Shown here: positions 166-41,318 of the stretch, piece by piece
Position numbering within the stretch: the first letter of the stretch is position 1
Layout of the letters: each line of letters begins with the position of its first letter
Virus record (IMG/VR): IMGVR_UViG_2711768010_000017
Source: a virus
Lineage: Duplodnaviria > Heunggongvirae > Uroviricota > Caudoviricetes
Strand: one strand, 5' to 3'
DNA: 45,246 nucleotides
Translations under genes and position numbers: made by a program
Notes under the pieces: generated by a model
The model's database searches: none
Told to the model about the DNA's origin: nothing
What the model saw: the letters and a program-made list of their open reading frames with translations, nothing else

Positions 166-408
166 TTAGTAACGCCAGCGGTCATAACGCTGATATTTCG
201 GCACTTTTGGTGCTTTAATCGCCTTAATAACCCACACCACCGCAATCGCCAGTAGTAACCACGGCAGCAACTTAATCATCAATGCCAGCATACCGCCGAG
301 GAACATAATGGCCGTCGCCACAACCAGCGCGGCGATAATGCCCAGCAACGAAACGCCGGTGACCATCAGCATGACAAAAAAGCCAATCACAAAAAGTAGT
401 TCCAGCAT
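166..408 (-). CDS. pspG: Phage shock protein G (small hydrophobic inner-membrane protein); the track ORF 166..618 is an upstream over-extension
   Basis: 80-aa very hydrophobic product MLELLFVIGFFVMLMVTGVSLLGII...KYQRYDRWRY from an internal ATG with GGGAGAG RBS; lies immediately downstream of dusA as in E. coli. Confidence 0.7.
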   Translation of the reverse strand: MLELLFVIGFFVMLMVTGVSLLGIIAALVVATAIMFLGGMLALMIKLLPWLLLAIAVVWVIKAIKAPKVPKYQRYDRWRY

Positions 409-443
409 GATGCTCTCCCAAATATGAAATCTCTTGCTGGCAT

Positions 444-459
444 TACAAGAATCATGCCA
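444..459 (-). promoter_or_regulatory. Candidate sigma54-type promoter for pspG (TGGCAT-N5-TTGTA on minus strand)
   Basis: Minus-strand TGGCAT gattc TTGTA about 35-50 bp upstream of the pspG ATG; one mismatch to the -12 consensus; psp genes are known to be sigma54 dependent. Confidence 0.2.
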
Positions 460-541
460 AAAATAATCTATTGATTTAACAGCAAAACGCCCCGCGACGG
501 TGCGCAGGGCGTGGTGAATTTGACTACTTTTTGGTGAAAAG

Positions 542-1579
542 TTAACGCTTATCCGCCACCAGTTTGAGCGCGTGTTCCAGCACATTAATGTCTGCACCCG
601 CTTTATGGGCATTTTCACTTAAATAACGCCGCCACTGCCGCGCGCCAGGAATACCCTGGAACAAGCCCAACATATGCCGGGTAATATGGCCGAGATACGT
701 CCCCTGGCTGAGTTCACGCTCAATGTACGGATACATGGCGCGCACTACCGCCACCGGATCGGCATCGGTATCCGAGGAACCAAAGATCTCCCGGTCTACC
801 GCCGCCAGAATACCCGGATTCTGATACGCCTCGCGCCCGACCATCACGCCATCCATATGTTGCAGGTGTGCTTTGGCCTCTTCCAGCGACTTGATACCAC
901 CGTTAATCGACATTGTCAGATGCGGAAAGTCACGCTTCAGTTGATACACACGCGGATAATCGAGTGGCGGGATTTCACGGTTTTCTTTCGGGCTTAACCC
1001 CGAAAGCCAGGCTTTACGTGCGTGGATGATAAACATCTCACACTCGCCTTTGCCGGAAACGGTGTTGATGAAATCGCAGAGAAATTCATAGCTGTCCTGG
1101 TCATCGATGCCAATACGCGTTTTCACCGTCACTGGAATCGACACCACATCGCGCATCGCTTTCACGCAGTCGGCAACCAGCTGCGCATTACCCATCAGAC
1201 ACGCACCAAACATGCCGTTCTGCACCCGGTCAGACGGGCAGCCGACATTCAGGTTGATCTCATCATATCCACGCGCTTCTGCCAGCTTCGCACACTGTGC
1301 CAGCGCCGCCGGATCGCTACCGCCGAGTTGCAACGCTACCGGATGTTCTTCTTCACTGTACGCCAGGTAATCACCTTTACCGTGAATAATCGCCCCTGTG
1401 GTCACCATTTCGGTATACAGCAACGTATTGCGGGAAAGCAGACGCAAGAAATAGCGGCAATGTCTGTCCGTCCAGTCGAGCATAGGAGCAATGCTAAACC
1501 GAGAACTCCAGTAAGCGCCAGTTTTTTCAGGCATCACGCTGGTTTGATTAGTTTTCTGTGTTTCAGGATTATCGTGCAT
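542..1579 (-). CDS. dusA: tRNA-dihydrouridine synthase A
   Basis: 345-aa ORF with conserved Dus core ([26 protein letters not shown]); the prophage integrase starts 88 bp beyond its 5-prime end. Confidence 0.9.
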
Positions 1580-1612
1580 TTTTGAACATTTCAGGCTATT
1601 TTTCTCGCGTTA

Positions 1613-1647
1613 GGTTCCCGCACAGGTTCCCACGCTTTATGGGAACC
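1613..1647. repeat. GGTTCCC direct repeats plus inverted copy (hairpin) in the dusA-int junction; candidate att/arm-type or promoter element
   Basis: ggttccc at 1613-1619 and 1625-1631, gggaacc at 1641-1647 forming a 7-bp stem with 9-nt loop. Confidence 0.3.
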
Positions 1648-1667
1648 CGAAATAACGAGGTCGTGTA

Positions 1668-2765
1668 ATGGCGTACTATAACATAGAGAAACGACTAAAA
1701 TCCGATGGCACACCACGCTATCGCTGTAATGTGATTATCAAAGAAAAAGGTGTTATCACTTACAGGGAAAGCAAAACATTCCCTAAACATGCTCATGCCA
1801 AAACATGGGGCGCACAGAAAGTGATGGAATTAGATCTATATGGCATTCCATCATCAAATGCTGTTGACGGACTTACAGTCCGTGACTTACTACACAAATA
1901 TTTAAATGACCCAAATGCCGGAGGTAAAGCAGGCCGTACTAAAAGATATGTGCTGGAACTGCTTATGGATAGTGACATCTCCGCGATCAAACTATCTGAA
2001 CTGACAGAAAATGACGTAATTGAACATTGCAGGCTAAGAAACAACGCTGGTGCAGGCCCAGCAACAGTCAGCCACGATGTTAGTTATCTTGGCAGTGTTC
2101 TGGATGCGGCAAAACCTGTATACGGAATCAATTACACATCAAACCCGGCGAAAAGCGCTCGTCCATATCTACTTAAACTCGGTTTGATTGGTAAATCAAA
2201 CCGTCGTAATCGTAGACCAGCATCTGATGAACTGAACATGCTCATTGAAGGCCTTCAACAACGATCTACTCATAAATGCTCAAAAATTCCGTTCGTTGAT
2301 ATCCTCAAATTTTCTGTGTGGTCCTGTATGCGAATCGGAGAAGTATGCCGGTTACGATGGGAAGATCTCGACCAGGAACAAAAATCTATACTAGTAAGAG
2401 ACAGGAAAGATCCACGTAAAAAGGAAGGCAACCATATGAAAGTTGCCTTGCTTGGGGAAGCCTGGGATATCGTCCAGCGACAACCCAAAAAATCAGAATT
2501 CATTTTTCCATATAACAGCACTTCTGTTACCGCAGGATTTCAGAGGGTAAGAAGCAAATTAGGTATTAAAGATCTGAGATACCATGATTTGCGTAGAGAA
2601 GGGGCAAGTCGCTTATTTGAGGCTGGTTTTAGTATTGAGGAAGTCGCTCAGGTTACAGGGCATCGTTCATTAAACGTGCTATGGCAGGTATATACCGAAC
2701 TGTATCCGAAATCTTTACATAATCGTTTTGAAGAACTCCAAAGGAGCAGAAATAAGACCTCTTGA
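1668..2765 (+). CDS. int: Tyrosine integrase of the dusA-targeting family
   Basis: 365-aa ORF with ATG preceded by GAGG RBS; C-terminal catalytic region HDLRREGASRLFEAGFSIEEVAQVTGHRSLNVLWQVY with R/H/R/Y-type signature; sits next to dusA 5-prime end. Confidence 0.85.
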   Translation: MAYYNIEKRLKSDGTPRYRCNVIIKEKGVITYRESKTFPKHAHAKTWGAQKVMELDLYGIPSSNAVDGLTVRDLLHKYLNDPNAGGKAGRTKRYVLELLMDSDISAIKLSELTENDVIEHCRLRNNAGAGPATVSHDVSYLGSVLDAAKPVYGINYTSNPAKSARPYLLKLGLIGKSNRRNRRPASDELNMLIEGLQQRSTHKCSKIPFVDILKFSVWSCMRIGEVCRLRWEDLDQEQKSILVRDRKDPRKKEGNHMKVALLGEAWDIVQRQPKKSEFIFPYNSTSVTAGFQRVRSKLGIKDLRYHDLRREGASRLFEAGFSIEEVAQVTGHRSLNVLWQVYTELYPKSLHNRFEELQRSRNKTS

Positions 2766-2767
2766 CA

Positions 2768-2783
2768 CTGTTTATCCATACAG
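2768..2783. promoter_or_regulatory. LexA (SOS) box 1: CTGT-N8-ACAG
   Basis: CTGTTTATCCATACAG directly after a TTGACA -35 hexamer (2762-2767), upstream of the dinI-like gene. Confidence 0.65.
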
Positions 2784-2795
2784 TTAAAAATAATA

Positions 2796-2811
2796 CTGTA
2801 TACAAATACAG
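2796..2811. promoter_or_regulatory. LexA (SOS) box 2: CTGT-N8-ACAG
   Basis: CTGTATACAAATACAG, 15 bp upstream of the dinI-like ATG at 2826; close to the E. coli LexA box consensus. Confidence 0.7.
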
Positions 2812-2825
2812 TGTAGGGGACTTTT

Positions 2826-3074
2826 ATGCGTATTGAAATCTGCATAGCCAAAGAAAAAATGACTAAAATGCCAACCGGTGCTGTGGATGCGTTAAAGGAA
2901 GAATTAACCCGACGCATCAGTAAACGTTATGACGATGTAGAAGTGATCGTAAAAGCCACCAGCAACGATGGCCTTTCTGTTACGCGCACCGCTGATAAAG
3001 ATTCAGCTAAAACTTTTGTTCAGGAGACTCTGAAAGATACCTGGGAGTCTGCTGACGAGTGGTTTGTTCATTAA
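2826..3074 (+). CDS. DinI-like SOS-response protein (prophage copy)
   Basis: 82-aa product [11 protein letters not shown]...[11 protein letters not shown] resembles E. coli DinI in length and conserved C-terminal TWESADxWF motif; preceded by tandem LexA boxes. Confidence 0.85.
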
Positions 3075-3105
3075 GTTCATCATCTCTGGACACCATTCAC
3101 TTGTA

Positions 3106-3135
3106 TTGACTTTAAGATCATTAAATTGTAATAAT
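3106..3135 (+). promoter_or_regulatory. Candidate sigma70 promoter for the membrane-protein/RT operon
   Basis: TTGACT (3106-3111), 18-bp spacer, AATAAT (3130-3135); predicted start near 3142. Confidence 0.35.
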
Positions 3136-3141
3136 TCAAAG

Positions 3142-3280
3142 GGATGGGGCAGGTTTTTCCTCTTGCGCATGCAAGGGCGGCTCTGATAATGAACAGTAAT
3201 ATTTTACTGTTGAGCTTATGCTCACTGATCCTGCCGGGCAGGATGTTCAACGGTTCCAATATATCCTGCCCCTTCCGCTT
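3142..3280 (+). ncRNA. Structured 5-prime leader or candidate RT-associated ncRNA (several stem-loops)
   Basis: GGGGCAGG (3145-3152) complementary to CCTGCCCC (3265-3272); local hairpins cttgc-gcat-gcaag (3162-3175), aacagtaa-tatt-ttactgtt (3192-3211), and perfect palindrome atcctgcc-g-ggcaggat (3228-3244). Confidence 0.25.
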
Positions 3281-3296
3281 TTAAAAAGGATCTTTT

Positions 3297-3848
3297 ATGC
3301 ATGACAATATTTGGTTTACATATAAAGCACGTATCCAAGCGCACCATCGACTAGAATGGCTTGAAAAACACTCTCAATTTATCCTCGTTTGGTATGCTAT
3401 ATTGAGTGCGGTACTTTCAATTGTAACGTTGCGATTTCCAAAGGTTCTAGGAGATAATACAGATGTCGTTGCGGCGATACTTTCAGTGGCTCTACTGGGT
3501 ATTTCTCTGATCGTATCTAACCTAGATTTTCGTGGTCGAGCAATAGCCATGAGAAGGAATTATATTGCACTACAGCGACTCTATTTTGACATTACCACCA
3601 GTCAACAGTTATCTCTTGAACAGAAAGAAAAATATTTTAATTTGCTCAATGAGGTTGAGAATCACCGTGACATAGATGATAAAATTTCAAGGGTAACTCA
3701 AGTTGGACTTAAGACGAGGATCCCCACACAAAAAGAAAAAATAATTGTTATTTTATGGATATTACTTCGAATATTTATTACTGCCGCACTTTATATACTC
3801 CCATTAATATATCTTTGGATTGACTATGACTGCAAGCAGAATTTTTAA
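3297..3848 (+). CDS. Membrane protein with three predicted TM helices; candidate effector partner of the downstream RT
   Basis: 183-aa ORF with AAGGA RBS; hydrophobic segments FILVWYAILSAVLSIVTL, VVAAILSVALLGISLIVSNL and C-terminal IIVILWILLRIFITAALYILPLIYLWI; AT-rich; overlaps RT start by 23 nt. Confidence 0.7.
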   Translation: MHDNIWFTYKARIQAHHRLEWLEKHSQFILVWYAILSAVLSIVTLRFPKVLGDNTDVVAAILSVALLGISLIVSNLDFRGRAIAMRRNYIALQRLYFDITTSQQLSLEQKEKYFNLLNEVENHRDIDDKISRVTQVGLKTRIPTQKEKIIVILWILLRIFITAALYILPLIYLWIDYDCKQNF

Positions 3849-5196
3849 AAAGTCATTCTCGAAAAAAAATCTTCTAAAAGTATACTCTGAAAAAATCAAA
3901 GAATCAGGAGCGATTGGCATAGATCGGATTCGCCCATCAAAACTTGATTTGACAATAAAAAATGAGATCACTTTCATTTTTGAAAAGGTTAATTCTGGCA
4001 ATTACAAATTTACAGCATATAAAGAAAAATTAATATCTAAAGGCGCTAACTCTACACCCAGACAGATTTCCATACCAACTGCTAGGGACAGAATTACTCT
4101 TAGAGCTCTCTGTGAATGCCTTACGGAAATATATCCTAAGTCCAGATTAAAACTACCACATACAGTAATTGACTCATTGAAAGAAGCATTAAACAACAGT
4201 CTATATGCTGAATATGCAAAAATAGATCTTAAAAGTTTCTATCCTTCAATTGAACATAAATTGATAATTAATGCAATAAAAAATAAAATTAGAAAAAAAG
4301 AAATTAGACAGTTAATAACATCATCATTAATCGTGCCTACTGTAAGTGGAACCACAGGAAGCAAAGGTATCCCTAATAATACCAGAGGAGTACCTCAGGG
4401 ATTAGCGATATCAAACATTTTAGCTGAAATATCACTATCTAATTTCGATGATGAAATCAATAAAATGCATGACATATGGTACATGCGATACGTTGATGAC
4501 ATTCTTATTTTAACACCAAAATATCAAGCAACAAAAATAGCTTCTCATATCATTGATAAGCTTCAATCATTAAATTTAAACCCACATCCATTAAATGAAG
4601 AGAACTCAAAATCCAAAGTAGGCAGCTTGGATGAAAGTTTCAACTTTTTGGGCTACCACATAAAAAATCGAGAATTATTGATAAAACATGAGAGCATTCT
4701 TAGATTTGAGTCATCCTTAGCAAAAATTTTTACTGCATATAGACACGCTCTACTACAAGCTAAAAATAAGCGCGATAAAGAACGAGCTGTTGCATATTGT
4801 CAGTGGAAACTAAATCTTAGAATTACGGGATGTGTGTTTGAAGGTAAACGATTGGGATGGGTATCGTACTTCTCACAAATAACGTCAACAGCTCAACTTC
4901 GAGCTGTTAATCATACGATCAATAATCTTATCCGCCGATTCGGCCTTTCATCAGAAATAAAACCAAAGTCTTTGATTAAAACTTTCTATGAACTCCGCAG
5001 GGGTAGAGCGGAGACTTTTAAATACATACCTAACTTTGACAATCTACATATATCTCAGAAACGAGAAATTGTTTCTATGTGGATAGGGAAAGAGAATGAA
5101 AAAAAACTTAGCAATAGTGAAATAGAGAGAAAATTTAAATTTAAAATTGCGAAATCAGTAAAAGAGCTTGAAGAGGACATTTCAGGGATATCATAG
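3826..5196 (+). CDS. Reverse transcriptase (defence-associated type, retron-like or UG/Abi-like; family unassigned)
   Basis: RT motifs in order: GIDRIR, RQISIPTARDRITLRAL, KIDLKSFYPSIEH, GVPQGLAISNILAEI, YMRYVDDILIL (YxDD), FNFLGYHI; about 200-aa C-terminal extension; first ATG at 3826 (track start 3820 is TTG). Confidence 0.85.
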   Translation: MTASRIFKKSFSKKNLLKVYSEKIKESGAIGIDRIRPSKLDLTIKNEITFIFEKVNSGNYKFTAYKEKLISKGANSTPRQISIPTARDRITLRALCECLTEIYPKSRLKLPHTVIDSLKEALNNSLYAEYAKIDLKSFYPSIEHKLIINAIKNKIRKKEIRQLITSSLIVPTVSGTTGSKGIPNNTRGVPQGLAISNILAEISLSNFDDEINKMHDIWYMRYVDDILILTPKYQATKIASHIIDKLQSLNLNPHPLNEENSKSKVGSLDESFNFLGYHIKNRELLIKHESILRFESSLAKIFTAYRHALLQAKNKRDKERAVAYCQWKLNLRITGCVFEGKRLGWVSYFSQITSTAQLRAVNHTINNLIRRFGLSSEIKPKSLIKTFYELRRGRAETFKYIPNFDNLHISQKREIVSMWIGKENEKKLSNSEIERKFKFKIAKSVKELEEDISGIS

Positions 5197-9355: not shown

Positions 9356-10085
9356 TCAGAATTTATAACCGACACCCACGATGAAACCGTCAGTGCGCCA
9401 GTCGCCACTGCCGGAGCCTTCATAAGCAATATCAATGGCCACGGATTCGGTCGGGTTAAACTGCACGCCAGCTCCCCACGCCAGAGACGTGTTGCTGTGG
9501 CGACCGTCATCACTTCCGGTCAGCACATCGTGCGTTTTCCCCTTATTGTCAGTTACGCGGATATAATCCCCGGAAAAAGTCGACACACGGCTGTAAGCCA
9601 CACCCGCCATCGCATACGCGCTGAACCATTCATTCACGCGCACAGACGGCCCCGCCATCACGCTGAACCAGCGGTTACGAACGGAATCTTCATGCCAGCG
9701 GGTATCGCTGTAACGGGTCAGCTGGCGATTCTTGTCTCCTGCATAGCTGAATGACGTCACCANNNNNNNNNNNNNNNNNNNNNNNNNNNNNNNNNNNNNN
9801 NNNNNNNNNNNNNNNNNNNNNNNNNNNNNNNNNNNNNNNNNNNNNNNNNNNNNNNNNNNNNNNNNNNNNNNNNNNNNNNNNNNNNNNNNNNNNCCCCAGT
9901 GTGTCCGTAAACTCATAACGGTATTTCACGTTAATCCCGTTCAGATCATCACTGCCGGGAACGTTGGTCCGGGCATGAAGATACCCCGCGCTCAGCGTGG
10001 ACTGATGTTCAGACGCCCATGCAGGCGCACCGGATACGGCCAGACAAATGGCTGCGGACAAAATTGCTGCACAAACTTTACGCAT
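9356..10085 (-). CDS. lom: Lom/Ail/PagC-family outer membrane protein, interrupted by an assembly gap (N run 9763-9893)
   Basis: N-terminal signal peptide MRKVCAAILSAAICLAVSGAPAWA and C-terminal beta-barrel end GFIVGVGYKF; position between J and stf as in lambda. Confidence 0.7.
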
Positions 10086-29007: not shown

Positions 29008-29490
29008 TCATCGAAGGCATTGCGTCCTGATATATTCCTGAAGCGTTCTCAGTGCTGTCTGGTCTCTGATGATTCCGTCCCGGATACCGAGAACGTTTCG
29101 TCCAGCAACTGGAGAGAGTTCGACGGTGGCATCATTGCCCATGCCGGAGGCGCTGGAGGTTTCGGCTGAGGATGGCACAGAGCATTTTCCTTTGACGAGC
29201 ACCCGACCACCATTATCAAGCTTGCGCCGAAGAGCATCATTTTCAGCTTTCGCATCAGCCAACTCCTTCGTGTATTTAGCATCGAGTACATCAGCAGCAC
29301 GCTGGCGTTGCTGCATGTCAGTAATGGTGGCGGTCGCCTGCTTCAGCTCACTGACTTTTTTATCACGCTGTTCTTTGTAGGCGATGGCGTTATCACGGTA
29401 ATGATTGACCGCCCACGACAGGCAGACGATGATGCAGATAACCAGAGCATAAATAATCGCGGCGACTCTGCTCACTGATCTATCCCCCAA
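29008..29490 (-). CDS. Spanin inner-membrane subunit (Rz-like)
   Basis: 160 aa with N-terminal TM helix and coiled-coil periplasmic domain; downstream of endolysin. Confidence 0.8.
29049..29255 (-). CDS. Spanin outer-membrane lipoprotein (Rz1-like), embedded in Rz in another frame
   Basis: [21 protein letters not shown] lipobox signal followed by a Pro-rich segment [16 protein letters not shown]. Confidence 0.6.
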
Positions 29491-30005
29491 CAGGCTAATG
29501 CGCTTTCCTGGTCACGACGAATAACCTGTCCATAGCAGTTATTTGAACGTATGCGGCAATCGCGCCCACCATCTTTTATCCACCAGCGAATCGCCTCGCA
29601 TGCACCTTTACGATCACCAGCATTCAGCCGCTTATAAAACGTCGACGGAAAACACTTACCGGGGCCAATGTTATAGGGACAAAATGACGCGATACCCGCT
29701 TTTTGTGGCTCGGTCAGTGGTACTTTAATATTGCGCTCCACCCATGCCAGCGCCTTATCACGCTCAATGGCGTTGACCTGGTCGCATTTTTCCTTCGACA
29801 GTTTCATACCGGGAAAAACGGGTTTTCCATCCACCATCGTGGCACCCCGACAGATGGTCCAGATGCCGGACCCATCGCGGTATGCCGTTGTGTGGTTACC
29901 TTCTTTTTCATCCAGAAACTGGTCGAGAATATCAGGCGCGGGCGCACCGACGGCAATCAGTGCCAGAACGGCAGCCGACAGGCCGTATCTGATTTTTGCG
30001 TTCAT
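29472..30005 (-). CDS. Endolysin (phage lysozyme with N-terminal signal-anchor-like segment)
   Basis: 177 aa; hydrophobic N-terminus [16 protein letters not shown] then lysozyme-like [20 protein letters not shown]. Confidence 0.85.
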
Positions 30006-30060: not shown

Positions 30061-30484
30061 TCAGTGACTTAAGGTTGTGATTCCGGAGGAGTCTTCAGAG
30101 AACCAGTAATTCTTCCTGGTAGCTTTCCTTTGTAGGTTATCCAAACATTCTGCGNNNNNNNNNNNNNNNNNNNNNNNNNNNNNNNNNNNNNNNNNNNNNN
30201 NNNNNNNNNNNNNNNNNNNNNNNNNNNNNNNNNNNNNNNNNNNNNNNNNNNNNNNNNNNNNNNNNNNNNNNNNNNNNNNNNNNNNNNNNNNNNNNNNNNN
30301 NNNNNNNNNNNNNNNNNNNNNNNNNNNNNNNNNNNNNNNNNNNNNNNNNNNNNNNNNNNNNNNNNNNNNNNNNNNNNNNNNNNNNNNNNNNNNNNNNNNN
30401 NNNNNNNNNNNNAAACCAGTACCCGGCACTACCTGCTGAGGTGCCATAGGCGACACCCGTTGTTAACTTATCCATGGATTTCAT
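30061..30484 (-). CDS. Holin, split by assembly gap (N run 30155-30412); dual-start MKSM motif
   Basis: [25 protein letters not shown]-terminus with GAGGTGG RBS; only the 24-codon N-terminal piece and a C-terminal piece are resolved. Confidence 0.5.
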
Positions 30485-30551: not shown

Positions 30552-31604
30552 TTATTTCCCCACCAGCTCGTTTATCTCTTTCACTGTCTGATTAAACCGC
30601 TCTGACTCAAGCTCAACACCTAAGGCCCGACGCCCCAGCGCCATTGCTGCTTTTATTGTGGAACCGGATCCCATAAAAAAATCAGCAACCAGATCACCTG
30701 GTCGACTACTGGCATTGATTATTTGCCTGAGCATATCCGCCGGTTTCTCACACGGATGTTTCCCCGGGTAGAACTGAACGGGTTTATGCATCCAGACATC
30801 GGTATAAGGCACGGAGACTGATACGGAGAAATAGCGCCGGAGAGATTTAAACTCATCCAGCAATTCAGAATATTTACGATTCAGTGAATCATAAGATGCC
30901 ACCAGCTGGTGGTGTGGTTGTTCCAGTTGTTGTTCCTGAAACTTCTCTGCCGCTATACGGGAAAACAGTGCCTGTAACTTCCGATAGTCAGCCTCATTCG
31001 GCAACTGCCACTGACTGGCACCAAACCAGTGGGAAACCATATTTTTCTTACCTGTGGCTTCGGCAATTTGTTTTGCCGTTATACCCAGTTCGGCACGAGC
31101 ATCCCTGAAATACGATATCAGCGGTGCCATTATGTGCTGTTTGAGTTCCCTTTCTTTTGCCGCATAGCCGTCACTTTTGCCGCGATATGGCCCCTGGTAA
31201 TGTTCAGCAAACAGAACGCGCTCTGTGGCAGGAAAATATGCGCGCAGACTTTCTTTATTACACCCATTCCAACGTCCGGACGGCTTCGCCCAGATGATAT
31301 GGTTAAGCACGTTGAAACGTTCACGCATCATGATCTCAATATCAGATGCCAGGCGATGCCCACAGAACAGGTAAAGGCTTCCGGCAGGTTTCAACACCCG
31401 CCAGAACTGGGCCAGACAGTGGTCCAGCCACTTAAGGTAATCTTCGTCCCCTTTCCACTGATTGTCCCAACCGTTGGGTTTCACCTTGAAGTAAGGCGGA
31501 TCGGTAACAATCAGGTCAATGGAATCATCAGGCAGGGACTGAATAAAATGCAGGCAATCAGCGTTGATTAAATCAACACTGTTTATTTTTACAGTATTTT
31601 TCAT
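30552..31604 (-). CDS. DNA methyltransferase (N6-adenine/N4-cytosine, beta-class motif order)
   Basis: DLIVTDPPY near the N-terminus and FFMGSGST (FxGxG) near the C-terminus. Confidence 0.85.
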
Positions 31605-31754: not shown

Positions 31755-31982
31755 TTACTGGCAGCGTCTGAATTTATTCCCGTACCCGCCGTTATCCTTC
31801 GCCAGACCCGCCAGAACTAACTGAGTCAGTATTAACTGGCACCGGGCTTCGCTTACTCCGGTAGTTCTCGTCATCATGCGTGGCGTTACCCACTTGTCAG
31901 CAGGTAAGAAATGAAGGACTGCGGCGGCGGTTTCTGTCATATCTTGCTGTTTTAGCATGTCTTTTTCCCTTCTGGTTAACAT
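31755..31982 (-). CDS. Small hypothetical protein (possible winged-helix regulator)
   Basis: 75-aa ORF between the lipoprotein moron and the methyltransferase; no confident family assignment. Confidence 0.3.
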   Translation of the reverse strand: MLTRREKDMLKQQDMTETAAAVLHFLPADKWVTPRMMTRTTGVSEARCQLILTQLVLAGLAKDNGGYGNKFRRCQ

Positions 31983-32077
31983 GACATACCAATAACTCTT
32001 GTCTAAAAAGCCAGCAAGATAAAAAGTCAGTATTCACGACCACCAGCGTGTTTACTGTACTGCACCAAGTTTACGGG

Positions 32078-32104
32078 TACAAAAAACCCGCTCAGTGGCG
32101 GGTT
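32078..32104 (-). terminator. Rho-independent terminator downstream of the lipoprotein gene
   Basis: cccgc-tcagtg-gcggg hairpin with A/T extension, followed on the minus strand by TTTTTTGT; near-identical copy at 32755-32783. Confidence 0.6.
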
Positions 32105-32181
32105 GCTATCACAGCTATATATTTACTTATTATGCCGTTACTAACATTTATCTTCGACATATAATCGAAAACAAGGTTTGC

Positions 32182-32598
32182 TTAAAACTCTGCTTTCATT
32201 TTATCCGGGAATTTTTTATTTGCAGCATAATAACTACCAAGTACATAAGCGTTCATTTGCTGCTCTACATCAACCCGACATGCCGCACTAGAACAAGCTC
32301 CACTGATAAGCCCAAAAGAACTCCCTTTAGCAGAGAGATCAGCTTTGATTTCCTCTACAGTGTTTTTCCCCATAGCAACTACACACCCTGTCACAATATA
32401 TCTAGCTTTCACATCATCCATGCTAAGGATAGTAGTTTTCGCAATTTTGCTGTATCCATCATTTTTATAAACATCCATGGCAAACGCACGGCAATCTGTA
32501 TAATACGGACTTGCTTTAACTTGCGAATACTCAGGTAATTTCATACCTGCACAACCAACTAAACAAAAACCTATCGCTGCTATTAATACCTTTTTCAT
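32182..32598 (-). CDS. Lipoprotein moron (function unknown)
   Basis: MKKVLIAAIGFCLVGCAG lipobox signal peptide; AT-rich gene flanked by duplicated terminator hairpins; alternative start at 32607. Confidence 0.7.
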   Translation of the reverse strand: MKKVLIAAIGFCLVGCAGMKLPEYSQVKASPYYTDCRAFAMDVYKNDGYSKIAKTTILSMDDVKARYIVTGCVVAMGKNTVEEIKADLSAKGSSFGLISGACSSAACRVDVEQQMNAYVLGSYYAANKKFPDKMKAEF

Positions 32599-32754
32599 TA
32601 CAGTCATAACCTAGAAGCATCATTGAAACTAATTTATTAAATAACCATCGAGTTTCTGGAATACAGACGTTAACCATCTCTCCAAAATCTAAAAGATAAT
32701 AAGAAAAAATGTTTAACGCACCAATCCATTTCATAGTTTCATGAGACATCAGGC

Positions 32755-32783
32755 ACAAAAAACCCGCTCAGCGGCGGGTTTTT
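32755..32783 (-). terminator. tR-prime-like terminator just downstream of Q (hairpin also has T-run on plus strand)
   Basis: acccgc-tcagcg-gcgggt hairpin flanked by A-run (plus 32755-32762) and T-run (32779-32783). Confidence 0.6.
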
Positions 32784-32886
32784 GACATTTACCAACGGTA
32801 GACATACAAGGCCCATCGTTGAGAAAATCTTATCCATATTTTTTGAAAAATGCAAGTATCACGTCGACATCTTCGGCGAAAATTAT

Positions 32887-33681
32887 CTATCTTGTCACTT
32901 TTCTCAATTGCGATTCAGCATACGCTTCTTCCTGCCAGCACTTTGTAACCAGTTTATTAATAACGTCTGCATATCCTTTGTACCACTGATAATCCGTCAG
33001 GTCCGGTACCAGTTTCTGGACATGATGCCGCGCCAGTGTGGTTGGTAAACGGCTAAACCGGTTGCCATTGCAACGCCCACAAATCTTATAAACAGGCACA
33101 CCATGAAGCCGGGTTCTTTTTTCATCCAGGACAATACCTTTACCCTTACACCCTCTGCACGCTGTGCTGACTTCTCCCTTACCATGGCAATGCTGACATA
33201 GTTCCTTCACCCACTCTTCCTTGATAACAGATTCCCCGCTTCTGGAGTGTTTCACCACTTCGCGCAATACATTATGAAATCCAGTACCAGCACAATGCTC
33301 ACAGCGAGCCTTACTTGCCGCAGACCTGGAATAATCAGCAAAGGCAAAATTCACAAGGTAAGGGATGATCTGTAACCGGGTTTCTTCACTCAATTTGTTC
33401 AATGTCGGGTTATCCAGTGCCATCGCGTAATTGAGCAGACCTTCAATCGCAAATTGAGGATCCTGAACACCAACTTTTGCCAGGAATAAGGCAAACCCAA
33501 GCGGTGCTTTCGACTGCACCATCCCCTGCGCAGCCATCACATCCGTAATCGTTAAACCACCTGAGCCTGTCGCCGGTGCGTCATCGCTCAATTTTGGAGA
33601 TTTTGGGGAGTAATATTTTGGTAAGGCTTCAAGGTTCATGCTCGTTCTCCACTTACGCCAATACGCCAATTGCCAGCGCAC
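32887..33681 (-). CDS. Late-gene antiterminator Q-like protein (zinc-binding)
   Basis: Cys-rich CEHCAGTG...CQHCHGKG...CRGCKGKG...CGRCNG; position immediately upstream of terminator and lysis genes; track start is GTG, alternative ATG at 33639. Confidence 0.65.
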   Translation of the reverse strand: MRWQLAYWRKWRTSMNLEALPKYYSPKSPKLSDDAPATGSGGLTITDVMAAQGMVQSKAPLGFALFLAKVGVQDPQFAIEGLLNYAMALDNPTLNKLSEETRLQIIPYLVNFAFADYSRSAASKARCEHCAGTGFHNVLREVVKHSRSGESVIKEEWVKELCQHCHGKGEVSTACRGCKGKGIVLDEKRTRLHGVPVYKICGRCNGNRFSRLPTTLARHHVQKLVPDLTDYQWYKGYADVINKLVTKCWQEEAYAESQLRKVTR

Positions 33682-34648
33682 GATCGATAAAACGAAATAT
33701 CAGCTCCAGCTGGGAGCCATACTTCTCTTCAAATGCCACGGTATCCGCATGCAGCTCGTCGTGATGCTTTCTGCACAAAGGCAACACAAAGAGGTCATGC
33801 GCTTTTGTACCCATTCCACCCTGACCGTGGCCTATCAGGTGGTGGGGATCATCAGCAGGCTTTCCACAACATGCACACGGCTGTGTCTTAACCCAGCGCG
33901 TGTACTTTTCATTAACCCAGCGGCGGCGTTTTGGGCGTAACATAAAAGACTCCGGCGACTCCGGATCCACTTTCAGCGCCAGCACCTTTTTTGCCTTATC
34001 CTGGATGATGCTGGTGGCAGGAACCGAAGGCACAAGGTCACTTTCCCGGGTGACAGACGGCACAACAGGCTTTGGTAATCTCAGTGCCTTACGGGCTGCA
34101 CTTTCCGGTAAGGCATCCGCCAGGTCATTACGAATCAGCCACCAGCACAGTTCCGGCATTGTCACAACGTGACTATCATCAAAACCGAGATCCCGACGCA
34201 CAACAGACAACACCCAGCGGGCACAGTTATCCGTTGCCATTGATTCCAGCCGTTCCGTGAACTGATCGCGCAGCTGGTTATCGCAGTGCCAGCACAGACG
34301 GATTGCGCCCGGAGCGTGTCGCATTGTGGTCATGTTCTCGCTGTGCCAGTCGGAATGAGGCCACTGGCAGCCTTTTTCACGAAGTAACCAGCTTTCAAGA
34401 CATTCCACGCCACCAGCACGACGGATCACTGCCTCATTGCGGAACACGGCCCGAACGGCAGGATCATCCGCCAGCGGTTGTGATGCCGCCGGAACGGCAC
34501 CACTGGCGAAAGATGAATAACGTTCCGGCTCAGGCTCCAGCAGAACACGCCCCTGCATAAACAGGGGCATCAGCTCTGAACCTGGCCTGAACAATACGAT
34601 CCCCATACGCGGGGCAATTTCAGGGGTCAGTAGTGCTCTCACGGTCAC
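33653..34648 (-). CDS. Nin-region protein with C-terminal Cys/His (HNH-like) motif, DUF968-like by recollection
   Basis: C-terminal CACCGKPADDPHHLIGHGQGG...CRKHHDELH; track start is GTG with GAGG RBS. Confidence 0.45.
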   Translation of the reverse strand: MTVRALLTPEIAPRMGIVLFRPGSELMPLFMQGRVLLEPEPERYSSFASGAVPAASQPLADDPAVRAVFRNEAVIRRAGGVECLESWLLREKGCQWPHSDWHSENMTTMRHAPGAIRLCWHCDNQLRDQFTERLESMATDNCARWVLSVVRRDLGFDDSHVVTMPELCWWLIRNDLADALPESAARKALRLPKPVVPSVTRESDLVPSVPATSIIQDKAKKVLALKVDPESPESFMLRPKRRRWVNEKYTRWVKTQPCACCGKPADDPHHLIGHGQGGMGTKAHDLFVLPLCRKHHDELHADTVAFEEKYGSQLELIFRFIDRALAIGVLA

Positions 34649-41273: not shown

Positions 41274-41318
41274 CGGTACCAGTTTGTACACTTGCTTCCG
41301 GCTGGTACCGCTCTTTTT
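41274..41318 (+). terminator. Terminator-like hairpin in the early-left leader
   Basis: 9-bp perfect stem cggtaccag/ctggtaccg with 19-nt loop, followed by CTCTTTTTA. Confidence 0.4.

What the first reader, a model, noticed from the sequence alone, without database searches (positions are those of the whole stretch)
32078..32790. Lipoprotein moron bracketed by two near-identical terminator hairpins between Q and the lysis genes
A lipobox-bearing gene (MKKVLIAAIGFCLVGCAG) in an AT-rich segment sits between two copies of acaaaaaacccgctcag(t/c)ggcgggtt (32081-32104 and 32755-32783), both oriented as terminators for leftward transcription. This is the architecture of a moron inserted by recombination at the tR-prime terminator, leaving a duplicated terminator. 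The protein does not resemble Bor.
Basis: seen in the sequence. Interest (0 to 1): 0.5.

Follow-up and report, generated by a model that had tools for sequence, protein, structure and literature searches.

The report
Lipoprotein moron between duplicated phage terminators
A small AT-rich accessory gene for a membrane-anchored lipoprotein of unknown function sits just after a lambda-like prophage's late-gene switch, flanked by two copies of one transcription terminator; it is a textbook phage "moron" that related phages carry or lack, not a new kind of element.

Summary
A 29-nt direct repeat (27/29 identical; none expected by chance) at 32076-32104 and 32752-32780 forms two intrinsic-terminator hairpins for leftward transcription. 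They bracket a 141-aa lipobox ORF (32182-32607, minus strand) in a 36% GC segment; the window is 50% GC.

Phages SfV and vB_EcoM-720R4 and 186 complete E. coli genomes have one terminator and no insert, as an exact 676/677-bp indel. The insert is in 215 of 5,426 E. coli genomes, phages mEp460 and Ayreon, and Stx2c and Stx2k phages.

The upstream copy is the tR' equivalent. It lies about 40-65 nt after a lambda-like pR' (TTGCAT-17-TAAGAT, then AACGATGGG).

Three refinements:
- The terminator-gene-terminator layout is old. A 75%-identical Salmonella cassette has it behind an unrelated Q.
- The repeats also drive loss. One viral contig matches this prophage but lacks the cassette and carries a chimeric terminator.
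- This hairpin class is common in enterobacterial phages, so hairpin identity alone is weak evidence of duplication.

The gene is under strong purifying selection (dN/dS about 0.1). Its family is tiny and matches no known family or fold, so its function is unknown. Verdict: an ordinary, well-built moron.

The parts
32887..33639 (-). Late antiterminator Q gene (250 aa as annotated in RefSeq relatives; the longest ORF runs to 33681)
   Evidence: Pfam PF03589 Antitermination protein Q, E 7e-54, plus a DnaJ-type zinc finger. Annotated ydfT/antitermination protein Q in 100%-identical genomes.
32815..32855 (-). Late promoter pR' equivalent: -35 TTGCAT 32855-32850, 17-nt spacer, -10 TAAGAT 32832-32827, then tttctc and AACGATGGG from 32820 (sigma-70-dependent pause element and start region)
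   Evidence: Direct comparison with lambda pR': TTGACT-17-TAAATT-tgactc-AACGATGGG. The role of AACGAT as pause element is from established lambda literature (my knowledge). Not tested experimentally here.
32752..32784 (-). Upstream terminator copy (T_up, tR' equivalent): hairpin 32780-32761, T-run 32762-32757, tail GTGCC 32756-32752. In this haplotype the stem extends to 10 bp (32758-32767 / 32774-32783) and is T-flanked on both strands.
   Evidence: (D2, I20). It lies about 40-65 nt downstream of the inferred pR' start.
32696..32724 (-). Candidate cassette promoter: -35 TTGGTG 32724-32719, 17-nt spacer, -10 TATTAT 32701-32696
   Evidence: Read. The Salmonella cassette has TTGGTA-18-TATCAT at the homologous position. 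The whole 158-nt leader aligns far better than shuffles (z 7.5) although synonymous sites are saturated. Weak -35; not flagged by the consensus scan.
32182..32607 (-). Lipoprotein gene, 141 aa (possibly starting at ATG 32598, MKKVL...). Lipobox LVG|C with Cys19, Ala at +2. Four further invariant Cys (39, 75, 105, 110).
   Evidence: invariant columns; dN/dS 0.08-0.2; phrog_4748, unknown function; helical model, pLDDT 79.
32105..32181 (-). AT-rich 77-nt spacer between the stop codon and the downstream terminator. Absent from the Salmonella cassette, where the terminator follows the stop directly.
32076..32104 (-). Downstream terminator copy (T_down): hairpin 32104-32085, T-run 32086-32081, tail GTACC 32080-32076
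   Evidence: (listed as terminator-like, 7 pairs, 5 GC).
31755..31982 (-). First gene after the cassette (75-aa ORF; 67 aa in RefSeq). Together with T_down and its tail it forms the downstream module that is also found behind other Q types.
   Evidence: phrog_331. Called a TrmB-family regulator in the Stx2k phage record. Found after the same terminator behind several Q types.
30552..31604 (-). DNA methyltransferase, followed by the holin (partly masked by N 30155-30412) and lysozyme (29472-30005): the late genes that T_down shields from cassette transcription
   Evidence: PF01555; annotation; N-run.

Best explanation
This is a classical lambdoid moron: a 676-bp AT-rich accessory transcription unit lodged directly behind the late promoter and its terminator.

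How it most likely works:
1. In the lysogen, pR' fires constitutively, and its roughly 60-nt transcript stops at the upstream hairpin (tR' equivalent).
2. The cassette's own sigma-70 promoter (TTGGTG-17-TATTAT, start near 32690) then makes a monocistronic mRNA with a leader of about 85 nt.
3. The downstream hairpin stops that mRNA, so cassette transcription cannot run into orf75, the methylase, the holin and the lysozyme. Any promoter-bearing insert at this position needs such a stop to be tolerated.
4. After induction, Q-modified RNA polymerase reads through both hairpins. The gene is then also expressed as the first late gene.
5. The product is exported, lipid-modified at Cys19 and, having Ala at +2, sorted to the outer membrane. 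There a helical domain with probably two disulfides faces the periplasm and acts on the envelope. An exclusion or host-fitness role is likeliest, but the target is unknown.

The two terminators are true duplicates of a unit of at least 29-40 nt (hairpin, T-run and tail). They serve as homology for recombination, so the cassette is repeatedly lost, and exchanged, between otherwise near-identical phages.

Shown here: the anatomy, the indel polymorphism, purifying selection and the family distribution. Inferred: promoter activity, termination, lipidation and localisation, and function.
For: - Repeat and hairpins.
- Exact empty site in SfV, 720R4 and many contigs. Frequencies are 215 genomes filled and 186 empty.
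- pR' is collinear with lambda pR', including AACGATGGG.
- Foreign composition, 0.357 against 0.50 GC.
- Real gene: dN/dS is 0.08-0.2 with saturated synonymous sites. The lipobox Gly-Cys and four more Cys are invariant.
- Autonomy: homologues sit in three other genomic settings. One follows a divergently oriented vapBC pair in the early-left region, so it must be transcribed on its own. Others are on a Buttiauxella plasmid and in Serratia.
- Promoter: the -35/-10 pair and the leader are conserved between the E. coli and Salmonella cassettes.
- True and old duplication: the Salmonella cassette has the same T_up hairpin, and all four tails fit the consensus GTRYCYG(T)AAAC. Its flanking DUF968 (61%) and methylase remnant (72%) have diverged about as much as the lipoprotein (75%), while its Q is unrelated.
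- Recombination at the repeat: both upstream haplotypes occur filled and empty. L031 is 100% identical to the window over 2,939 nt upstream. Its two alignments to the window overlap by exactly the 29-nt repeat. Its single terminator has the T_up loop and tail joined to the T_down flank.
Against: - No expression data were found for this gene. The only published transcript from an mEp460-type prophage that I found, sRNA-17, maps elsewhere in the window.
- The candidate -35 matches only 3 of 6 positions. The consensus scan finds no minus-strand promoter in 32608-32750.
- Function is unsupported by homology. There is no Pfam, NCBIfam or PADLOC hit, the PHROG is of unknown function, and no fold match is informative.
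- Gain versus loss cannot be settled for most empty sites.
- The hairpin itself is a common type, and C(A/G)CTGA is its commonest loop (13 of 120 sampled contigs). Part of the similarity between the two copies could therefore be convergent.
Confidence: 0.72

Rival explanations
1. It is a late gene, not an autonomous moron. It has no working promoter of its own and is expressed only when Q-modified polymerase reads through T_up. The lipoprotein then serves the lytic cycle, for example by masking a receptor so that progeny are not lost on debris, or by modulating envelope breakdown.
For: It is the first gene downstream of pR'/tR' and is co-oriented with the late operon. The consensus scan finds no promoter in the leader. 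In the Stx2k phage it lies on the pR'-to-stx2 path.
Against: The -35/-10 pair and leader are conserved across saturated divergence. A dedicated terminator immediately after the gene has no purpose for a gene made only by terminator-resistant polymerase. Homologues occur outside late operons, one after a divergent vapBC pair. Functional isolated phages lack the gene (SfV, 720R4).
Confidence: 0.18
2. There was no duplication. The cassette brought its own terminator, which merely belongs to the same very common hairpin class as the resident tR'. The insertion itself was illegitimate.
For: The stem AACCCGC/GCGGGTT with a T-run is widespread in viral contigs, with more than 60 different loops. C(A/G)CTGA is the commonest loop and sits in at least 25 unrelated flanking contexts. 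In orthologous contexts the loop drifts by single steps.
Against: Identity continues past the hairpin into the tail: 27/29 in E. coli, and 18/23 including the tail GTAYCYGAAAC in Salmonella. The indel boundaries coincide exactly with the repeat. Chimeric single terminators exist.
Confidence: 0.08
3. The hairpins are the ends or recombination sites of a mobile element (MITE or IS200/IS605-like, or an integron-type attC cassette) moved by a dedicated recombinase.
For: The gene is bracketed by hairpin-forming repeats. The same hairpin is found at many unrelated sites.
Against: No transposase or integron integrase lies in or next to the cassette. The repeats are direct 20-nt terminator hairpins with T-runs, not attC-like sites of 57 nt or more or subterminal IS hairpins. 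In E. coli the cassette is always behind this one Q type. Its homologues elsewhere lack the hairpins.
Confidence: 0.02

Closest known systems
Morons of lambdoid phages as defined for HK97/HK022 (Juhala et al. 2000; reviewed in 'The moron comes of age', PMC3594210)
   Same: An extra transcription unit present in some and absent from closely related genomes at a precise boundary. It has deviant base composition and its own terminator, probably its own promoter, and is dispensable for lytic growth.
   Different: Here the terminator after the gene is a copy of the resident tR', so the unit is bracketed by direct repeats. Those repeats also mediate its loss. I found no description of this detail in the literature searches.
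Lambda bor (Bor outer-membrane lipoprotein, serum resistance); Cor of phi80/N15 and Llp of T5 (receptor-blocking lipoproteins)
   Same: A small prophage-encoded lipoprotein with a type II signal peptide, near the late/lysis region, and a plausible lysogenic-conversion or exclusion factor.
   Different: No sequence or family relationship: no Pfam, NCBIfam or PADLOC hit. The predicted fold is an all-helical bundle with four conserved Cys. The position differs as well: between tR' and the holin, in the late-operon direction. The gene travels with Q rather than with tail genes, which argues against blocking the phage's own receptor.
Accessory genes between Q/pR'-tR' and the lysis cassette: stx in Stx phages; cspB/cspF in Qin and nmpC in DLP12 (the last two from my knowledge)
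   Same: The same hot spot for cargo, and the same logic of Q-dependent read-through on induction. In phiSTEC1575-Stx2k this cassette lies between Q and stx2k.
   Different: Different cargo. A single small gene with tight insulation on both sides.
Lambda pR' - 6S RNA - tR'
   Same: Promoter architecture and the AACGATGGG initial transcribed sequence are collinear. A constitutive short transcript ends at a hairpin before the late genes.
   Different: The short RNA would be about 60 nt rather than 194 nt. The Q protein belongs to another Pfam family (PF03589, with a zinc finger).

Membership tests
Moron (Hendrix/Juhala sense) | Present/absent between closely related phage genomes with a precise boundary | tested here: met
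   Exact 676/677-bp indel against SfV, 720R4 and L031. 215 filled and 186 empty E. coli genomes.
Moron (Hendrix/Juhala sense) | Base composition unlike the surrounding genome | tested here: met
   GC 0.357 against 0.47-0.50 in the flanks.
Moron (Hendrix/Juhala sense) | Own factor-independent terminator downstream of the gene | tested here: met
   T_down hairpin plus T-run. Termination activity itself was not assayed.
Moron (Hendrix/Juhala sense) | Own promoter, with expression from the repressed prophage | tested here: inconclusive
   TTGGTG-17-TATTAT is conserved as TTGGTA-18-TATCAT in Salmonella, and the leader is conserved (z 7.5). The -35 is weak, the scan does not flag it, and no transcript data were found.
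Moron (Hendrix/Juhala sense) | Not required for the lytic cycle | tested here: met
   The isolated phages SfV and vB_EcoM-720R4 lack it. This is inference from their existence as phage isolates.
Bacterial lipoprotein (signal peptidase II substrate) | Positively charged N-region, hydrophobic core, and a lipobox [LVI][ASTVI][GAS]C | tested here: met
   MTVMKKVLIAAIGFCLVG|CAG. Gly18 and Cys19 are invariant across eight family members, with LVGC, IVGC, MVGC, MAGC or STGC at the box. This is a rule-based reading; no SignalP-type tool was available.
Bacterial lipoprotein (signal peptidase II substrate) | Lipid modification and Lol-dependent outer-membrane sorting (no Asp at +2) | not testable with these tools
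   Residue +2 is Ala (Ser in one member), which predicts the outer membrane by the +2 rule. This needs globomycin, palmitate-labelling and fractionation experiments.
Bor family (lambda Bor/Iss) | Match to the Bor family profile | tested here: not met
   No Pfam family at E <= 0.01. NCBIfam gave only a sub-threshold unrelated match (E 0.12, 12.6 bits against a 137-bit cut-off).
Known anti-phage defence or exclusion proteins (PADLOC models; Cor/Llp-type lipoproteins) | Sequence or fold similarity to a described exclusion or defence protein | tested here: not met
Intrinsic (rho-independent) terminator | GC-rich stem-loop followed directly by a U-run on the transcribed strand | tested here: met
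   Both copies. Ayreon's depositors annotate both as terminators, and SfV's depositors annotate its single copy.
Lambda-type late promoter pR' with promoter-proximal pause | -35 and -10 with a 17-nt spacer, then a -10-like AACGAT at the start of the transcript, just downstream of Q | tested here: met
   Side-by-side reading of window 32855-32812 and lambda 44,54x-44,60x. Pausing and Q loading were not assayed.
Integron cassette / transposable element | Associated recombinase, and attC-type or terminal-inverted-repeat ends | tested here: not met
   No integrase or transposase gene in or beside the cassette. The ends are direct 29-nt repeats of a terminator.

The most novel reading that the evidence does not exclude
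The duplicated terminators may be more than insulation. They could be a recombinase-independent cassette-exchange device: short, functionally constrained hairpins shared by many late-region modules provide the homology by which promoter-gene-terminator units are gained, swapped behind unrelated Q genes, and precisely shed. The cargo (phrog_4748) would then be a new class of disulfide-bonded, helical outer-membrane lipoprotein with a defined envelope target, for example a superinfection-exclusion or anti-lysis factor. It is sometimes paired with a second 99-aa lipoprotein (phrog_7666).
Probability: 0.15. Interest if true: 0.55.

Novelty: new member of a known kind. Interest (0 to 1): 0.3.

Why it matters
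The cassette is carried by about 4% of complete E. coli genomes. Carriers include ST131 JJ1886, O157:H7 and O111 strains, and Stx2c and Stx2k phages. In the Stx2k phage it lies on the transcription path from pR' to the toxin genes.

It is an unusually clean natural example of how an accessory gene can be placed next to lysis genes without killing the lysogen: one terminator in front and a copy of it behind. It also shows how such repeats make the cargo easy to lose.

The protein belongs to a very small, strongly constrained, uncharacterised family restricted to Enterobacterales prophages and plasmids. It is a cheap candidate for a lysogenic-conversion or exclusion screen. None of this changes how phage biology is understood.

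Tried and rejected
- Function by homology failed. Pfam, NCBIfam, PADLOC and PHROGs gave nothing useful. A profile search of PDB sequences gave only chance-level hits.
- Deeper family search found little: 9 clusters in 5.8 billion sequences and 8 representatives in 1.84 billion. Only three Serratia loci appear among 185,579 species genomes.
- Portable-terminator idea. The exact 24-nt hairpin occurs in more than 120 viral contigs and at least 25 unrelated contexts. The control scan shows that the stem class is common and has many loops, and that loops drift within orthologous sites. I therefore do not claim the hairpin is mobile.
- Rfam gave nothing above threshold. A weak STnc130 match (26 bits against a 55-bit threshold) rests on the terminator alone.
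- Published sRNA-17 of an mEp460-type prophage looked like possible expression evidence, but it maps to about 41.3 kb, not to the cassette. RS218 is not in the genome collection.
- The small ORFs annotated upstream of the lipoprotein gene in Ayreon, PhiR47_1 and the Stx2k phage (34-37 aa; a 75-aa reading frame here, 32531-32758) vary in length among 98-99% identical sequences and are closed in Salmonella. I reject them as genes.
- The second lipoprotein found after homologues in L241 and L008 is absent from the window, and the 77-nt spacer is not a remnant of it.

Full report
**What is in the sequence**

All phage genes in 29-36 kb run leftward, on the minus strand. In order they are:
- a DUF968/HNH-like gene (33653-34648);
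- the antiterminator Q (32887-33639; PF03589 plus a zinc finger);
- the 141-aa ORF under study (32182-32607);
- a 75-aa ORF (31755-31982);
- a DNA methyltransferase (30552-31604);
- a holin, partly masked by N;
- a lysozyme (29472-30005).

The repeat finder reports a 29-nt direct repeat at 32076-32104 and 32752-32780 with 27/29 identity. With up to three mismatches these are the only two copies in the window, and shuffles give none. On the transcribed strand each copy reads AACCCGCC(A/G)CTGAGCGGGTTTTTTGT(A/G)CC: a GC-rich hairpin with a six-T run. The RNA folds at -12 and -14 kcal/mol. The scan lists the downstream copy as a terminator. The depositors of phage Ayreon annotated both copies as terminators. 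The segment between the copies has 35.7% GC, against 50% for the window.

**The upstream copy is tR'**

Just after the Q stop codon the minus strand reads TTGCAT-17 nt-TAAGAT-tttctc-AACGATGGG (32855-32812). Lambda pR' reads TTGACT-17 nt-TAAATT-tgactc-AACGATGGG. From established lambda work (my knowledge), AACGAT is the -10-like element at the start of the transcript. It causes the sigma-70-dependent pause at which Q loads. The upstream hairpin lies about 40-65 nt after this start. It is therefore the terminator of the short constitutive late-promoter RNA, about 60 nt here against 194 nt in lambda.

**Related phages with and without the insert**

The 2.1-kb region is 98-100% identical in many E. 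coli chromosomes and in phages mEp460, Ayreon, fifteen Stx2c phages, PhiR47_1 and phiSTEC1575-Stx2k. SfV and vB_EcoM-720R4 have the same Q, pR', 75-aa ORF and methylase but a single hairpin. The alignment shows an exact 676/677-bp indel bounded by the repeat. The insert alone is in 215 of 5,426 complete E. coli genomes, always on chromosomes. A 154-nt probe across the empty junction is matched over at least 80% of its length in 186 genomes. More than a thousand further genomes carry only the half with the hairpin and the downstream side. The hairpin and its tail therefore belong to the downstream module, which is combined with several Q types. In PhiR47_1 the mosaic joint lies about 40 nt past T_down and leads into tRNA genes. 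In the Stx2k phage the cassette lies between Q and the tRNA-stx2k block.

**Age and direction**

A Salmonella enterica prophage (L007) and a second contig (L240) carry a 73-75% identical lipoprotein gene in the same place. There the Q is a non-homologous protein (PF06530/DUF1133; no tblastn hit with this Q). Their cassettes are also bracketed:
- upstream, AAGCCCGCCACTGAGCGGGTTTTTTTGTACCTGAAAC;
- downstream, AAAACCCGCATTGCGCGGGTTTTTGTATCCGAAAC.

Homology with the window runs without a break from the upstream hairpin through its tail and the leader into the gene. All four tails fit GTRYCYG(T)AAAC, so the repeated unit originally covered the hairpin, the T-run and at least 11 nt of tail. Synonymous sites between the two genes are saturated (pS 0.68). 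The flanking DUF968 (61%) and a 110-aa methylase remnant after the Salmonella T_down (72%) have diverged to a similar degree. The terminator-gene-terminator layout therefore predates this split. It is not a recent insertion scar.

Within E. coli, two haplotypes of the 15 nt just upstream of the hairpin each occur both filled and empty. That requires crossovers in or at the hairpin, or repeated loss.

Contig L031 is the clearest case. It is 100% identical to the window over the 2,939 nt upstream and 99.6% over the next 1.7 kb downstream. Its two alignments to the window overlap by exactly the 29-nt repeat. Its single terminator has the T_up loop (G) and tail (GTGCC) fused to the T_down flank (CGTAAAC). 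A single unequal or intramolecular crossover within the repeat explains this. Gain would need two crossovers, one of them within a 2-nt interval. Other empty sites combine the seven-T run of T_up with the T_down tail, and the SfV type keeps the T_up loop and 11 of 12 tail bases.

For any given lineage, though, the direction may be loss.

**How much weight the hairpin identity carries**

The exact 24-nt hairpin occurs in more than 120 viral contigs and at least 25 unrelated flanking contexts. These include sites between baseplate genes of unrelated myovirus-type contigs. I checked whether this marks a mobile unit.

It returned more than 60 different loops. C(A/G)CTGA was the commonest at 13 of 120 contigs, followed by near neighbours such as CATTGA and CATCGA. 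In clearly orthologous contexts the loop differs by single steps.

This is a common, functionally constrained terminator class. I do not claim mobility. The case for a true duplication here rests on the tails and the precise indel.

**The gene and its product**

The ORF is real. dN/dS against six homologues is 0.08-0.2. Gly18-Cys19 of the lipobox, four further cysteines (39, 75, 105, 110) and some 50 other positions are invariant.

The N-terminus (MKK, a hydrophobic core, then LVG|C) is a type II signal peptide by rule. Ala at +2 predicts outer-membrane sorting. Two disulfides fit a periplasmic location.

The family is tiny: 9 clusters among 5.8 billion sequences and 8 representatives among 1.84 billion. 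It occurs in Escherichia, Salmonella, Serratia and a Buttiauxella plasmid.

Homologues also sit elsewhere. One follows a divergent vapBC pair in the early-left region of Rac-like prophages. Others lie directly upstream of a second conserved 99-aa lipoprotein (phrog_7666). None of these has the hairpins.

No family library, PDB sequence profile or fold search gives a functional lead. The model (pLDDT 79) is a helical bundle.

In E. coli the cassette is linked to Q, not to tail genes, and occurs in phages with different virion modules. That argues against masking the phage's own receptor.

**Promoter**

The consensus scan finds no minus-strand promoter in the leader. However, TTGGTG-17-TATTAT (32724-32696) aligns with TTGGTA-18-TATCAT in Salmonella. 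The 158-nt leader as a whole aligns far better than shuffled sequence (score 87 against 17 +/- 9, z 7.5), despite saturated synonymous divergence. The ORFs annotated in this leader in some phage records are not conserved.

I take an internal promoter as likely, at about 70%, but unproven. No transcript data were found. The published sRNA-17 of an mEp460-type prophage maps to about 41.3 kb.

**Conclusion**

The finding is a well-formed lambdoid moron at the classic cargo site behind pR'-tR'. A copy of tR' insulates it from the lysis genes. It is polymorphic through recombination at that repeat, and it encodes an uncharacterised, strongly constrained lipoprotein.

It is a new member of a known kind. 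Interest is modest, at 0.3.

Noticed in passing
window 41282-41311 (-) and neighbouring ~200 nt: The published ArcA-regulated sRNA-17 of E. coli K1 RS218 (PMC7719688; 193 nt, mapped by RACE and Northern blot in an mEp460-type prophage) matches here exactly over its first 30 nt. The site is in the early-left region near yfdP, not in the cassette.
   Followed up: partly
IMG/VR loci L013-L132 (e.g. L016, L022, L039, L083, L094): The exact hairpin AACCCGCC(A/G)CTGAGCGGGTTTTTT occurs in more than 120 viral contigs and at least 25 unrelated contexts, with sharp boundaries. It lies behind at least three Q types and between baseplate-like genes. L094 has two copies 1,428 nt apart around a 338-aa structural gene. 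The control scan shows a common stem class with drifting loops, so it is probably a constrained terminator type rather than a mobile unit.
   Followed up: partly
window 32040-32075 (conserved block after T_down): About 40 nt after the downstream terminator (GTAAACACGCTGGTGG on the minus strand) is conserved even where both flanks change (PhiR47_1, L044; a diverged copy in L062, L075, L105). It often marks the mosaic joint. Its function is unknown.
   Followed up: no
L241 751-1050; L008 5446-5745: In two other settings the lipoprotein gene is followed directly by a second conserved 99-aa lipoprotein gene (lipobox LSAC/LSGC; phrog_7666, unknown function; the two copies are 76% identical). This suggests an ancestral two-lipoprotein operon. 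The partner is absent from the window.
   Followed up: partly
window 32752-32784: In this haplotype the bases upstream of the tR' hairpin are CAAAAA, which extends the stem to 10 bp and puts T-runs on both strands (potentially bidirectional). The commoner SfV/Ayreon haplotype has TTTAAG there and is one-directional.
   Followed up: no
L006 (phiSTEC1575-Stx2k) 376-3913: In the Stx2k phage the order is Q, T_up, lipoprotein, T_down, 75-aa ORF, an HTH gene, three tRNAs, then stx2kAB. Late transcripts must therefore pass both terminators of this cassette to reach the toxin genes.
   Followed up: no
window 9763-9893, 15135, 30155-30412: Runs of N (masked sequence). The third removes most of the holin gene between the methylase and the lysozyme.
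   Followed up: no
L007 5479-5808: The Salmonella prophage keeps only the last 110 codons of the methylase (72% identical), directly after its T_down. A deletion has therefore removed the 75-aa ORF and the 5' two-thirds of the methylase, starting near the terminator.
   Followed up: partly
window 31977-32113 (+): A sub-threshold Rfam match to sRNA STnc130 (26 bits against a 55-bit gathering score). Most of the aligned identity lies in the terminator hairpin, so it is probably not meaningful.
   Followed up: yes
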